The notes below the pieces were generated by a model. It was not told the origin of the DNA and searched no databases. It saw nothing but the letters and a program-made list of their open reading frames with translations. This document shows positions 33,612-38,280 of a stretch of 64,000 bases of DNA, in pieces. Source of the stretch: Bacillota bacterium (GTDB lineage: Bacteria > Bacillota > Sulfobacillia > Fermentithermobacillales > Fermentithermobacillaceae). Both the position numbers and the translations under genes were made by a program. How positions within the stretch are numbered: the stretch's first letter is position 1; each line of letters begins with the position of its first letter. Location: assembly GCA_050952065.1 (NCBI GenBank), contig JBMNKF010000003.1, positions 28,985-92,984 of the forward strand, written 5' to 3'.

Positions 33612-35103
33612 CTATGGCACCCAAAGGAAGTCTTTCCCGGATGACCTTCTTGGGTGACTCATAGGTTCAGCTATCAACATGAATTCCTCTGCATAGAGAT
33701 TTGGGCAGTACGGTCTGCTCGTGTATTGCCCCGCGCCTGGCACTCTTGGGGTTTTGGTGCCAGAGCCCGGTTCAGGCTCGGGTTCGAGCTTTCCTTGAGC
33801 ATAGTCTCTGGGGATCGACAGCAACCTTTCTGTGAGGGGATTCGTCTCTGGATCGGGAAGATTCAGGAACCGCACCTCTGTCACTTGAAATCCCGAGTCC
33901 CAGAACCAACCTAACGCTTTTTCGGGAGAAGCTGTCGGCCCCCATGCCGGCCTCGGATAGGTACGTGGTTCTGCAGCCAAGAGAAGCGGCAAGATTCTCT
34001 CACTTGACCATGAGTTCCTGATGATAGCCACCATATGGGAATTGTCTGCCATGACGGCCCTTGTTTGCCTCAAGAACCTCCTGGGGTTTGTTGAGGCTTC
34101 CAGACACCACTGAGCCAGTACCAGGTCAAATTTCCCCTGGGAGTCAAGATCTGAGGGGATGTCTTTCATCTCCTTGAACACCGGTGCTCCACCGTTTCCT
34201 GACAGGTGAGTTAGCGCGACTTTCTTGAGACCTCGGTCTGCTTCGAGTCCCGTGACGCTTTCAGCGCCTTCCCATAGAGCTCTCAGGAGATTGGCGCCTG
34301 CCCTGCAACGAAGGTCAAGGACTCGTTTTCCCCGGGGGTCAATCGTTTCGAAGAATTCGGGACGCGGGTACGGGAAGTTGGGATCGTCAACTCCCCACTT
34401 TGCGCAGAAGCGGTTTGCAGTGGAGTCGAGAACGTACCGGGGATAACCGCTGTTGCTTGGGATGGTCGGGGATGCATAGGTGTTTGAGGTTAGTGAGATG
34501 TCGGATGACCTGGATATACTGTGGGTACCGGTAGTGCTGTTGTGAACTAGGGTGTCGCCTGCTAGATAGACCGTACGACCCAAGAGAGCGGCCTTTAGGC
34601 AAATATCGTCGTCTTGGAACCTTCCCGGGCACAAGACTTCATCGAAACCTCTTGCCTCATGAAACAATTCTCTGCCTATGAGCATGGCATCGGAGCCTAC
34701 GCTCACAGTTGGCCGCCATTTGCATGGATTACGTCTGTTGGACCTTCCTCCGACGGGAGCCTGACTGCACAGGGGTCCCACGATTCCTGCTCCCGTGTTC
34801 TCTATACAGGACAGCATGTTCGTGAGCCATCCGGGGGGTCACCACAGTGCTGCCGTCCATGAACAATAGGTACTTGCCTCGAGCCTCCGCAGCAACCCGG
34901 TTCTTTACGCTGAACGGGTTTCTTGCACACTCTTTGCGGACAAATCTTATGTTGTCCTGTCCGGTAACCAAATCGTCAAGTTCGTGAAACGGAGGTTGCG
35001 TGGCTATGACCTCGTGTTCTTCCGGAGTGAACTCCGCTAGACTCTTGAGACACAGTCGGGCCTCTTCCGGATTATCCGATGTGACCACGATTATGCTAAC
35101 CAA
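33612..35103 (-). pseudogene. GT2 glycosyltransferase / class-I SAM methyltransferase fusion, interrupted by a +1 frameshift in a G6 homopolymer
   Basis: Two overlapping ORFs (34729..35103 and 33612..34817). Removing one G from ccGGGGGGtc (34834-34839) restores FMDGSTVVTPGWLTNMLSCIENTGAGIVGP, which fits the GT2 consensus after the DxD motif. The downstream methyltransferase motif is VLDLRCRAG. Confidence 0.6.
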
Positions 35104-35230
35104 GGGCGGGCACCTCGCGTCAACATCCTATGAGGTGTCGCCCCCATGTGGCCACCTGGCATTTGCGTATACAGGGTATTGACACCAAGCAGAGAACGTT
35201 TTCTTCCGCCGTCTCTCGTGATATAGTCTT

Positions 35231-35512
35231 CCAAAGCCCGTGAAGGGGACGGTAGGCGTTAGCCAGGGTTCAGAGAGTCGCCGTCAGGTGAGAGGCGATC
35301 CCTAGTGCGCCGTTAGCACCCCTGAGGCGCGCATCGGAACGCTTTGGGCCCTCGAGAGGTTTCTTAGGGAGAATAGATCCGGCCCCGGGTGAGTATGGTG
35401 CGACGGATAGTCCCGTTAGAGGCGTTTGAGGCGGCCGCGTCTGGCCGCGCATCAAGGTGGCACCACGAGAGCAGGCAATCTCGTCCTTGGAGATTGCCTG
35501 CTTTTTGTTTTC
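35231..35512 (+). promoter_or_regulatory. T-box riboswitch leader of serS
   Basis: An AGAGAG bay and a T-box-like element AAGGUGGCACCACG (35454-35468) are immediately followed by the terminator hairpin GCAGGCAATCTC/GAGATTGCCTGC plus TTTTTGTTTT (35471-35512). The specifier could be UCC or AGC (both Ser) and is not resolved. Confidence 0.55.
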
Positions 35513-35558
35513 GGTAGTCCCAAAGAGGCAAGTCGAGACATTCGGGAGGTATGGAGTC

Positions 35559-36834
35559 GTGTTCGATTTGGAGGTTCTAAAGAAGAATCGGCCCCTTGTG
35601 GAGGAGATGCTTCGGAAGCGGGGACAGGAAGCGCCCCTTGACGAGATCCTGCTTCTGGAAGAAAACAGGGTTCAATTGGTGCGAAGCATCAATTCCCTTA
35701 GAGAGCAAAGAAACTCCATCTCAAGCCAAGTCAAAACCTGCAGGGACCAGGACTGCAGGGAAAGGCTAATTGAGTCCAGCCGCGAGATCCGGGCCCAGGT
35801 CCTTGATGCGGAAAGCCGGTTGGCGGAAGTATCTGCACGAATCCGAGACCTGGTCATGTGGCTGCCTAACATGCTGGCACCGGATGTGCCTTACGGTGAA
35901 GACGAGTCGGGAAATGTGGAGGTTCGAAGACACGGGGTACCCCAGAGTCATGGATTTCCCCGTCAAAGACCACGTTGAACTGGGGGAGAGCCTCGACATT
36001 CTGAGTATGTCTATGGGTGCCAAGACCTGGGGCACACGGACATACTATCTCAGGCGGGAGGCCGTCTATCTGGAATTTGCCCTGGTGCGTTACGCTTTGG
36101 ACCTTCTCGTGGAAGAGGGCTTCGTTCCCGTAATCCCTCCGGTTATGGCTCGTTCAGATGTTCTCTTAGGGACTCGCCACTATCCGTTCATGAAAGAACA
36201 GATTCTACAGAATTGAAGGCGAGGACTTGGGACTTGTGGGTACTTCCGAGATTCCCTTGGCTGCCATGCACGCAGGAGACATTCTGGACGAAGGCGATCT
36301 TCCCTTGAAGTATGCCGGATTTTCTCCGTGTTACCGGACTGAACTGGGTTCGGGCGGGCGCGACATCCGTGGCCTAATACGCACTCACCACTTCGACAAG
36401 GTAGAGATGTTCGTGTTCGACACAACCCATGTGTTCTGACGATACTCTGGAATATATGGTGTCGCTGGAAGAGCGCATCTACCAGGGACTCGGCATTCCA
36501 TACAGAGTGATGAAAATGTGTTCGGGGGAATCTCGGACCGGTGGCATACAAGAAGTACGATCTAGAGTTTTGGAAACCGGCGGACGGGGTCTACAGAGAG
36601 TTCACTTCATGCAGCAACTGTACGGATTTCCAGGCTAGAGGGCTTAACATCCGGTATAGGCCCAAGGACGGAGGGAAGCCGGAGTTCGTCCACACCTTGA
36701 ACGGTACGGGCATAGCCATAGGCCGGACTCTGGTTGCCATTATTGAGAATTTCCAGGAAGCCGACGGTTCGGTGACTGTTCCCGAAGTTCTGAGGCCCTA
36801 TATGCCTGGAGGTCAAGCAAGGATCTGCCGTTAA
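35559..36834 (+). pseudogene. serS: seryl-tRNA synthetase split across four ORF fragments by four single-nucleotide +1 insertions
   Basis: SerS segments lie in successive frames: the N-terminal coiled coil, then ...DFPVKDHVELGE..., then [12 protein letters not shown]...[30 protein letters not shown], then [31 protein letters not shown], then [12 protein letters not shown]...[17 protein letters not shown]...[21 protein letters not shown]. The shifts are at about 35940 (a cccc run), 36202, 36435 and 36529. Deleting one nucleotide at each site restores one ORF. The start is GTG at 35559 after GGGAGG. Confidence 0.8.
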
Positions 36835-37020
36835 CGCCCCGGCGCTTCGACGCCAGCAGAGCCTAGTGTTGGGGCACTGTGCCCTAACAAGACCCATTCA
36901 AACAGTGGAGACTTCGGAGGATACGGAGATACTCTGGTCGAATGCTGTCCTGTTGGTCTGGCGAAACGCTCCAGAATTCGAGACTCAGAAGTCTCGGGAG
37001 ACTGCGAGGAGGAGTATCTG

Positions 37021-37999
37021 ATGGATGAAATCGTGAGGCAGATCGAGGAACTGAAAAGGCAGCAGGCCGGGTTGGGCCATGTCTTGGCCACCTTGGCAAA
37101 GGCGATTGATGATGTTCAGTGGTACAACGTCATGCACGGGAAAGCTACCGTCGACAAAGTCCTTTTTACCGGGCCGCCCCCGGCTAATCTCCTGGCTCAG
37201 TCACCTCAGGACCGAGGCAACCCCCTCAAGATCCATGCCTATACCTTTGCGCCAACAGGTATCGATCAGTCCAAGAAGCACCCGTTGCTCGTATTCGTCC
37301 ACGGAGGAGTTCATTGCCAACTTCAATACTGATTCCGCTCATATCGTGCAGGAACTTGTGGCTCAGGGCTACATAGTGGTTGCCCCCGATTACCGCGGCA
37401 GCACAGGATACGGAGAGCAGTTTTACAAGTTTATCGACTATGGGCGGTCTCGAGGTCGAAGATGCCTTTGCTGCCCGCAACTTCATGATCGAGAATGAGC
37501 CGCTGGTTGATCCCGGATCGAGTTGGCATATTGGGATGGAGCCACGGCGGGCTTATCACACTGATGAACATCTTCAATCATCCCGATGCCTACAAAGTGG
37601 CCTACGCCGGTGTCCCGGTTAGCGACCTTGTGGCCCGCATGGGGTACAAGGGCCCCCACTACCAGAGCCTGTTTTCGGCCCCATACCATATTGGGAAGAC
37701 GGCTGTCGAGGACCCCGCGGAGTATATCAGGAGGTCGCCGGCTTGGCAGGTTGAGAGACTTGAGACACCATTGCTGATACACACGACTACAAACGACGAA
37801 GATGTCAATGTCCTGGAAGTCTTGCACCTGATAAAGGCCCTGAAGGCTGCCGGGAAGGAGTTCGAATACAAGGTTTACGAAAACGAGCCCGGCGGCCACG
37901 TGTTCAACAGGAATAGACACCAAGGCTGCCAAGGAATCCAGGAAAGAGATATACGCTTTCCTGGCCCGTTATCTCGAACCGGAGACTCCGACACAATAA
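37021..37999 (+). pseudogene. alpha/beta-hydrolase peptidase (S9 prolyl-oligopeptidase / dienelactone-hydrolase-like) with four +1 frameshifts
   Basis: The fragments are LLVFVHGG, DSAHIVQELVAQGYIVVAPDYRGSTGYGEQF, LEVEDAFAARNFMIENEPLVDP, DRVGILGWSHGG (the nucleophile elbow GWSHGG) ...EYKVYENEPGGHVF, and the C-terminal IDTKAAKESRKEIYAFLARYLEPETPTQ. The shifts are at about 37315, 37443, 37515 and 37912, each fixed by deleting one base. Confidence 0.65.
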
Positions 38000-38090
38000 G
38001 CATCGGTTTCTTGCGCGATTCTTGGGGAAAGAAAACCAGACCAGGCACTTTTGGGTGCAGGTCTGGTTAATTCTGTGTCATGCTCCTGGT

Positions 38091-38280
38091 TTACTCGCGG
38101 TCTGCTCGAAGAACGCCTCCTGCTGGCCAAGTTGTAGTTAGCCATATCCCTGATAATGATGGTTACAGCCGTGGGCGGTACTTGGAGTGACTTAACTATT
38201 GCCTCGGTCACCAACTTTGCCAACTCTCGTTTCTGTTCCACGGTTCTGCCTTCGAGCATTTCTACCTGCACGATTGGCAC
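38091..38280 (-). pseudogene. 4-oxalocrotonate tautomerase family enzyme with a +1 frameshift near its 3' end
   Basis: The N-terminus MPIVQVEMLEGRTVEQKRELAKLVTEAIVKSL matches 4-OT (Pro1). Deleting one T at about 38128 gives ...IIIRDMANYNWPAGGVLRADRE*, which matches the 4-OT C-terminus. As sequenced, the ORF runs on to 37969 with a non-homologous tail. Confidence 0.55.

What the first reader, a model, noticed from the sequence alone, without database searches (positions are those of the whole stretch)
34834..38130. Ten single-nucleotide +1 insertions confined to four adjacent genes (GT2-methyltransferase, serS, S9 peptidase, 4-OT tautomerase)
I translated all frames across each break. Every interruption in this 3.3-kb block is repaired by deleting exactly one nucleotide, usually inside a short homopolymer (G6 at 34834; cccc at 35940; ggg at 37443; gg at 37515; aa at 37912; and others). 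No other gene in the remaining 60 kb or so shows a frameshift, including ORFs of 1117, 1242 and 1228 aa. Genuine pseudogene decay would normally mix deletions, substitutions and stop codons. A run of same-direction +1 insertions in a short segment looks more like a locally uncorrected low-coverage consensus, for example a gap filled from long reads. If real, the T-box-controlled serS, normally essential, is inactivated together with its neighbours, which would require a second serS elsewhere and would mark a decaying island.
Basis: partly seen in the sequence, partly recalled or inferred. Interest (0 to 1): 0.7.

Follow-up and report, generated by a model that had tools for sequence, protein, structure and literature searches.

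The report
Local assembly error: fourteen spurious inserted bases
Four neighbouring genes, including the essential seryl-tRNA synthetase gene, look broken only because this one assembly carries 14 extra single bases in a 3.6-kb stretch; every other assembly of the same bacterium lacks them, so this is almost certainly a sequencing or consensus error, not biology.

Summary
Against 5-7 independent short-read-type metagenome assemblies of the same population (about 99.9% identical, tiling window 1-63935 at mean depth 4.8), the window carries 14 private single-base insertions between 34833 and 38454. Ten are the reported frameshifts: 1 in the GT2-methyltransferase, 4 in serS, 4 in the S9 peptidase, 1 in the 4-OT tautomerase. 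Four more lie in intergenic DNA.

- There are no deletions in the block and at most one substitution.
- Deleting the 14 bases restores proteins of 496, 423, 324 and 62 aa, identical to the other assemblies.
- Elsewhere the window has one private single-base indel. It is intergenic and sits in a naturally SNP-rich tract whose genes are intact.
- Insertions hit coding and non-coding DNA in proportion to length, so there is no sign of selection.
- The truncated products exist in one public record only: a 128,771-nt contig of an NCBI "Bacillota bacterium" MAG (MGI6643213-218).

A real decaying island is very unlikely. The serS T-box leader is real (E 5e-20, probable AGC specifier, intact terminator) and untouched. 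Interest is low, apart from flagging spurious gene fragments in a public MAG.

The parts
34833..38454 (.). Error block: 3,622 bp holding 14 window-private single-base insertions (mean spacing 278 bp, about 0.39% per base), with no deletions and at most one substitution.
   Evidence: Flanks 1-34832 and 38455-63935 carry no comparable indels.
33612..35103 (-). GT2 glycosyltransferase / methyltransferase fusion gene. True product is 496 aa (PF00535 + PF13489); here it is split into 124-aa and 401-aa ORFs.
34833..34838 (.). Insertion 1: G6, true G5. Frameshifts the GT2-methyltransferase.
   Evidence: 5 of 5 comparators lack it.
35141..35145 (.). Insertion 2: C5, true C4. Intergenic, upstream of the T-box.
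   Evidence: 5 of 5.
35231..35491 (+). T-box leader of serS. The probable specifier is AGC (Ser), read from the alignment to the model. No insertion falls inside it.
   Evidence: 88.8 bits, E 5.4e-20, model positions 1-219; the same leader precedes serS in four relatives.
35467..35515 (+). Intrinsic terminator of the T-box: a 16-bp stem followed by a T-run.
35553..35554 (.). Insertion 3: GG, true G. Lies between the GGAGG ribosome-binding site and the serS GTG start.
   Evidence: 5 of 5.
35559..36834 (+). serS. True product is 423 aa (PF02403 + PF00587); here it is split into five frame segments.
35940..35943 (.). Insertion 4: C4, true C3. In serS.
   Evidence: 5 of 5.
36203..36204 (.). Insertion 5: TT, true T. 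In serS.
   Evidence: 5 of 5.
36423..36423 (.). Insertion 6: a C interrupting a true AAA run (not a homopolymer extension). In serS.
   Evidence: 6 of 6.
36529..36530 (.). Insertion 7: AA, true A. In serS.
   Evidence: 6 of 6.
37021..37999 (+). S9 / DLH-type alpha/beta-hydrolase peptidase gene. True product is 324 aa; here it is split into five frame segments.
37314..37315 (.). Insertion 8: TT, true T. In the peptidase.
   Evidence: 6 of 6.
37442..37444 (.). Insertion 9: GGG, true GG. In the peptidase.
   Evidence: 6 of 6.
37512..37514 (.). Insertion 10: CCC, true CC. In the peptidase.
   Evidence: 6 of 6.
37912..37913 (.). Insertion 11: AA, true A. In the peptidase.
   Evidence: 7 of 7.
38007..38009 (.). 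Insertion 12: TTT, true TT. Intergenic, between the peptidase stop and the 4-OT stop.
   Evidence: 7 of 7.
38091..38280 (-). 4-oxalocrotonate tautomerase family gene. True product is 62 aa (PF01361); here it reads through to a 103-aa ORF.
38121..38123 (.). Insertion 13: the window reads TGC where the natural alleles read GC (6 assemblies) or TG (L001). It looks like a merge of the two alleles. In 4-OT.
38452..38453 (.). Insertion 14: GA where all comparators have T. Intergenic, between 4-OT and rimP.

Best explanation
The 3.6-kb stretch at 34833-38454 is a patch of low-quality consensus in one metagenome-assembled genome, an NCBI 'Bacillota bacterium' MAG (128.8-kb contig; proteins MGI6643213-MGI6643223). 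The organism's real sequence lacks the 14 extra bases. It encodes an intact GT2-methyltransferase, a T-box-regulated SerRS, an S9-type hydrolase and a 4-OT tautomerase.

Shown here:
- The extra bases are absent from all independent assemblies.
- They are one-directional and blind to coding status.
- They are confined to one block.

Inferred mechanism: the block was built from few, error-prone reads whose dominant error is random single-base insertion. That fits a long-read bridge or a low-coverage, strain-variable segment that escaped polishing. The flanks were built from, or polished with, accurate data. The platform cannot be determined from the sequence alone.
For: 1. Absence elsewhere. Five contigs span the whole block and two more span part of it (3 JGI metagenomes, 4 Logan runs). 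They differ from the window only by the 14 missing bases plus a few polymorphic SNPs.
2. Repair. Removing the 14 bases gives proteins identical to L001, apart from a natural S53T polymorphism in 4-OT. These carry complete Pfam architectures. An 87%-identical relative has a 423-aa SerRS.
3. Spectrum. The block has 14 insertions, 0 deletions and at most 1 substitution. Natural window-private differences elsewhere are 14 substitutions and 2 indels. Fisher p = 7e-6.
4. No selection. Ten of the 14 insertions are in coding sequence, which makes up 75% of the block (p = 0.76).
5. Clustering. P = 5e-17.
6. Randomness. The per-base insertion rate is nearly flat for homopolymer runs of 1-3 (0.0025-0.0027), and 39 of 41 runs of 4 or more bases are untouched. 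That is what stochastic read noise looks like. PacBio continuous long-read errors are described as randomly distributed (PMC4678779), and long-read assemblies are known to fragment genes through short indels (PMC12007338).
7. Allele merge. At 38121 the window reads TGC where real alleles read TG or GC, as expected for a consensus over mixed strains.
8. Uniqueness. The truncated products (124-aa GT, 139-aa SerRS, 103-aa S9 fragment) occur on exactly one public contig, while the intact S9 protein occurs on 8.
9. Graph break. Three Logan contigs begin at exactly 38584, about 130 nt beyond the last insertion. This suggests a recurrent strain-variable junction at the block's edge.
Against: - No reads could be examined, so the artefact is inferred from comparison, not seen directly.
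- The comparators are population consensus sequences from other samples, so a rare real lineage carrying these changes cannot be strictly excluded.
- An insertion-only spectrum with weak homopolymer dependence is not typical of nanopore assemblies, where deletions in long homopolymers dominate (PMC12007338). The platform attribution is therefore uncertain.
- It is unexplained why only 3.6 kb of an otherwise clean 64 kb is affected.
Confidence: 0.93

Rival explanations
1. Real strain-specific pseudogenisation. In this lineage a 3.6-kb island containing serS and three neighbours has been inactivated by true +1 insertions and is decaying, with a second serS supplying the essential function.
For: - Four adjacent genes are all hit.
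- Most insertions duplicate a neighbouring base (11 of 14), as polymerase slippage would also do.
- The region between serS and rimP differs in gene content in an 87% relative, so it is evolutionarily plastic.
Against: - None of the 5-7 near-identical assemblies shares any of the 14 changes.
- There are no deletions and essentially no substitutions, although natural divergence in the same window is dominated by substitutions.
- Density is equal in intergenic DNA.
- The flanks are 99.99% identical to the comparators, so there has been no time for 14 independent fixations.
- The T-box leader, promoter region and terminator are untouched.
- From general knowledge, bacterial mutation is biased towards deletion, and serS is essential.
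Confidence: 0.04
2. Polisher- or merge-induced corruption rather than raw low coverage. Two co-existing strain haplotypes over this segment were collapsed, and the consensus or polishing step stitched misaligned alleles together and created the extra bases. This is still an artefact, but with a different technical cause.
For: - At 38121 the window's TGC is the union of the two real alleles TG and GC.
- At 38452 there is a complex T-to-GA change.
- Short-read contigs from several samples break inside or at the edge of the block: 36419, 37885, and 38584 three times. This indicates strain bubbles there.
Against: At the other 12 sites the comparators show no allelic variation that could be merged, so this cannot explain most of the insertions.
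Confidence: 0.15
3. Biologically meaningful recoding: programmed +1 frameshifting, transcriptional slippage, or phase variation at homopolymers.
For: A G6 and a C5 run are among the sites.
Against: - There are ten shifts in four unrelated genes.
- Five of the insertions extend runs whose true length is 1, and three do not extend any run.
- Four sites are non-coding.
- No site is conserved in, or even present in, conspecific assemblies.
- The net shift per gene is never restored.
Confidence: 0.005

Closest known systems
Gene-fragmenting indel errors in long-read or hybrid genome assemblies (as treated by Kastor, PMC12007338, and Homopolish, PMC8011154)
   Same: Single-base indels split genes into adjacent ORFs in successive frames. 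Most extend a run of the same base. They are detected and repaired by comparison with close relatives. The fragments get annotated as hypothetical proteins.
   Different: Here the errors are confined to one 3.6-kb block of an otherwise clean contig. They are all insertions, and they depend only weakly on homopolymer length. Nanopore errors described in PMC12007338 are genome-wide and dominated by deletions in runs of 4-5 or more bases.
Pseudogene clusters in reductively evolving bacteria, such as host-restricted pathogens and symbionts (from general knowledge)
   Same: Several neighbouring genes are interrupted by frameshifts.
   Different: True decay mixes deletions, substitutions, stop codons and insertion-sequence insertions. 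It is shared by the lineage and spares essential single-copy genes. None of these applies here.
T-box leader RF00230 upstream of aminoacyl-tRNA synthetase genes
   Same: The match covers the full-length model, with a probable Ser (AGC) specifier position, the T-box sequence and a terminator directly upstream of serS. It is conserved in four relatives.
   Different: It scores slightly below Rfam's gathering threshold (88.8 against 93 bits; relatives score 70-91) because of an insertion of about 46 nt in the stem II region. It is not part of the artefact.

Membership tests
Assembly / consensus indel artefact | Changes are absent from independent assemblies of the same population. | tested here: met
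   At each of the 14 sites, every comparator contig that covers it (5, 6 or 7 of them) lacks the inserted base.
Assembly / consensus indel artefact | Single-base, same-direction indels that mostly extend a run of the same base. | tested here: met
   14 of 14 are +1 insertions, and 11 of 14 duplicate an adjacent base.
Assembly / consensus indel artefact | No discrimination between coding and non-coding DNA. | tested here: met
   10 of 14 fall in coding sequence, which is 75% of the block; p = 0.76.
Assembly / consensus indel artefact | Confined to a contiguous patch with clean flanks. | tested here: met
   The remaining 60 kb has one private single-base indel; clustering P = 5e-17.
Assembly / consensus indel artefact | Low depth or lack of read support at the sites. 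| not testable with these tools
   No reads are available. The source contig (128,771 nt, NCBI MAG) could not be fetched.
Genuine pseudogene block / decaying island | Mixed mutation spectrum: deletions, substitutions and stop codons. | tested here: not met
   14 insertions, 0 deletions, at most 1 substitution.
Genuine pseudogene block / decaying island | Lesions are shared by, or graded among, related genomes. | tested here: not met
   No comparator carries any of the lesions. The truncated products are found on one contig only.
Genuine pseudogene block / decaying island | A functional backup for the essential gene, that is, a second serS. | not testable with these tools
T-box leader (RF00230) | Covariance-model score at or above the gathering threshold. 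| tested here: not met
   88.8 bits against 93, but E = 5.4e-20 over model positions 1-219.
T-box leader (RF00230) | A specifier codon matching the downstream gene, plus a terminator/antiterminator. | tested here: met
   AGC followed by A aligns to the specifier position (my reading of the alignment). A 16-bp terminator with a T-run lies at 35467-35515. The leader is conserved upstream of serS in 4 relatives.
Programmed frameshift / phase-variable homopolymer | A conserved slippery site or a long simple repeat at the shift. | tested here: not met
   True run lengths at the sites are 0-5 and mostly 1-2. The sites are not present in conspecific assemblies.

The most novel reading that the evidence does not exclude
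The insertions are real. A localised, insertion-only mutational process, for example an error-prone repair or replication patch that adds single bases over about 3.6 kb, struck one lineage very recently. It knocked out serS and three neighbours before any other change accumulated, and the lineage survives through a second serS or as a dying subpopulation.
Probability: 0.03. Interest if true: 0.6.

Novelty: not a real feature. Interest (0 to 1): 0.06.

Why it matters
The biological significance is close to nil. The organism almost certainly has intact, ordinary genes here.

The practical significance is modest.
- One public MAG record carries about ten spurious "hypothetical protein" fragments in place of four genes, including the marker gene serS. 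These fragments sit as orphan or misleading members in protein databases.
- They would distort completeness estimates, pseudogene counts and metabolic inference for this genome.

The case also shows a simple way to separate an artefact from real decay without reads. Compare the indel-to-substitution spectrum and the coding-to-non-coding density against conspecific assemblies.

Tried and rejected
- Rfam at gathering thresholds found nothing in the window. The T-box appeared only in an E-value search.
- Exact-pattern scans found nothing. The pattern accepted both the inserted and the clean variant of the 37442 site. It was run against the GTDB species representatives and against JGI metagenome contigs. 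So neither the source nor conspecifics are in those collections.
- The closest representative genome is a different species: MAG Bacillota AnMBR.bin531, SerRS 87% identical.
- Exact-product look-ups all returned nothing in the gene-position index: the 103-aa read-through 4-OT, the 401-aa GT fragment and the 124-aa GT fragment. The source contig and its sample could therefore not be fetched. Only the cluster look-up revealed the NCBI MAG accessions.
- Programmed frameshifting or phase variation was considered and rejected. Four of the sites are non-coding, the runs are short, and the sites are absent from conspecific assemblies.
- "The comparators are wrong" was considered and rejected. They give complete, conserved domain architectures, and they come from seven different samples (3 JGI metagenomes, 4 Logan runs).
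- MMR-deficient hypermutation was considered and rejected. It would be genome-wide and would run in both directions.
- The sequencing platform could not be determined.
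Full report
**Observation**

ORF listing across 32-41 kb shows four genes broken into short ORFs in successive reading frames.
- The GT2-methyltransferase on the minus strand is split into 124 + 401 aa.
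- serS falls into five segments, stepping through frames 0>1>2>0>1.
- An S9-type hydrolase falls into five segments, stepping through frames 1>2>0>1>2.
- A 4-OT tautomerase reads through to 103 aa.

Every step is in the "one extra base" direction.

**Independent copies of the same locus**

An exact-protein look-up with the intact neighbour RimP (window 38619-39122) returned ten contigs from three JGI metagenomes and several Logan-assembled sequencing runs. In every contig that reaches the region, the four genes are called full length.

| Gene | Length | Pfam families |
|---|---|---|
| GT2-methyltransferase | 496 aa | Glycos_transf_2 + Methyltransf_23 |
| SerRS | 423 aa | Seryl_tRNA_N + tRNA-synt_2b |
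| S9-type hydrolase | 324 aa | Peptidase_S9 / DLH |
| 4-OT | 62 aa | Tautomerase |

These contigs are 99.8-100% identical to the window. Base-by-base comparison shows that the window differs from them by 14 single-base insertions between 34833 and 38454, plus a handful of SNPs that are polymorphic among the contigs themselves.

The other four are non-coding:
- 35141-45, C5 for C4.
- 35553-54, GG for G, between the ribosome-binding site and the serS GTG start.
- 38007-09, TTT for TT.
- 38452-53, GA for T.

Deleting the 14 bases yields proteins identical to those of L001. The one exception is a natural Ser/Thr polymorphism in 4-OT.

**Is the block unique in the window?**

Four more look-ups brought in comparator contigs that tile window 1-63935 at mean depth 4.8. 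Outside the block, only two window-private indels are found:
- an extra 18-nt unit in a tandem repeat (6566-6587, in frame);
- a 1-nt deletion at 21765, in the intergenic spacer.

The 21765 deletion sits in a 2.4-kb tract (21720-24149) that also carries 13 private substitutions and whose genes are intact. That tract shows what real strain divergence looks like in this population: mostly substitutions, with indels only in spacers.

The block is the opposite: 14 insertions, 0 deletions, at most 1 substitution (Fisher p = 7e-6). The clustering probability is 5e-17, and 14 of 14 in one direction has p = 6e-5.

**Nature of the insertions**

- Eleven of the 14 duplicate an adjacent base, but the true run lengths are mostly 1-2.
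- The per-base rate is flat (about 0.0026) for runs of 1-3, and 39 of 41 runs of 4 or more bases are untouched.
- Ten of the 14 lie in coding sequence, which makes up 75% of the block. Nothing has filtered them by function.
- At 38121 the window reads TGC, while the population carries two real alleles, GC (six contigs) and TG (L001). That looks like a consensus merged across strains.
- Three Logan contigs begin at exactly 38584, about 130 nt beyond the last insertion. Others begin at 36419 and 37885. In an 87%-identical relative the genes between serS and rimP are different.

I infer that this segment is strain-variable. It was therefore thinly or ambiguously covered in the source sample and was bridged with noisy reads that were never corrected.

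The literature supports the general picture. Long-read assemblies fragment genes through short, homopolymer-associated indels (PMC12007338). PacBio continuous long-read errors are randomly distributed (PMC4678779). That insertions dominate raw PacBio continuous long reads is my own recollection, not something tested here. The platform remains undetermined.

**Source**

A cluster look-up shows where the truncated products occur. The 124-aa GT fragment is MGI6643213.1, the 139-aa SerRS fragment is MGI6643214.1 (ACOX3V_04350), and the 103-aa S9 fragment is MGI6643218.1 (ACOX3V_04370). Each occurs on exactly one public contig, of 128,771 nt, in an NCBI "MAG: Bacillota bacterium". The intact S9 protein is seen on 8 contigs, and RimP on 11.

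The source contig itself could not be fetched. The species is absent from the GTDB representative set and from the JGI contig collection that was scanned.

**T-box**

- RF00230 matches 35231-35491 over the whole model, with E 5.4e-20. The score of 88.8 bits is just under the gathering score of 93, which is why the default scan missed it.
- AGC followed by A aligns to the specifier position. This is my reading of the alignment.
- A 16-bp terminator with a T-run follows at 35467-35515.
- Four relatives carry the same leader upstream of serS, at 70-91 bits.
- No insertion falls inside the leader.

**Verdict**

The feature is a local assembly or consensus artefact (confidence about 0.93). Real pseudogenisation would require all of the following:
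- 14 independent, same-direction fixations in 3.6 kb of a genome otherwise 99.99% identical to its conspecifics;
- no accompanying substitutions;
- equal density in spacers;
- inactivation of an essential gene whose regulatory leader is pristine.

I put that reading at about 0.04. Programmed recoding or phase variation is effectively excluded. Only read-level data from the source MAG can close the case formally.

Noticed in passing
window 7025-7485 (and 6460-6698): Two tandem arrays lie here. One has an 18-nt unit, 13.4 copies, at 6460-6698; the window has one more unit than three comparators. The other has a 31-nt unit (93-nt super-unit), 14.8 copies, and the unit ends are inverted (TTGCG...CGCAA). 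All six reading frames are open across the second array. It is called as a 162-aa ORF with no Pfam match in a comparator contig, and it abuts a 1026-aa minus-strand ORF with no Pfam match (7557-10637)..
   Followed up: partly
window 21720-24149: An SNP-dense tract covers the spacer between the phosphofructokinase (PF00365) and oxaloacetate decarboxylase beta-subunit (PF03977) genes, and the latter gene itself. It has 13 window-private substitutions plus 1-nt spacer indels at 21765, 21825 and 21854, and the genes are intact. It looks like natural strain divergence or a recombination tract, and it served as an internal contrast to the artefact block.
   Followed up: partly
window 38584: Three independent Logan contigs (L008-L010) start at exactly this base, just upstream of rimP. 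This suggests a recurrent assembly-graph branch, that is, co-existing strains that differ upstream. In the 87% relative L023 the genes between serS and rimP are different.
   Followed up: no
window 35231-35491; L023 5619-5880; L024 5686-5939; L025 452-802; L028 4072-4305: The serS T-box leaders of this Bacillota lineage all score below Rfam's gathering threshold (70-91 bits against 93) although their E-values are 1e-13 or better. In the window's copy, the one whose alignment was printed, a long insertion (about 46 nt) interrupts the stem II region. Default annotation would miss these leaders.
   Followed up: partly
window 38121-38123 (4-OT codon 53): A natural dinucleotide polymorphism, GC or TG, gives Ser or Thr at residue 53 of the tautomerase among conspecific assemblies.
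   Followed up: yes
L021 (about window 20001), L019 (about window 22935), L009 (window 39174-75 and 40682): Some Logan comparator contigs carry their own private single-base indels. One splits dnaE in L021, one shortens the oxaloacetate decarboxylase beta-subunit gene in L019, and others lie in and just downstream of nusA in L009. Single comparators are therefore not error-free, and unanimity across comparators was required for every call made here.
   Followed up: no
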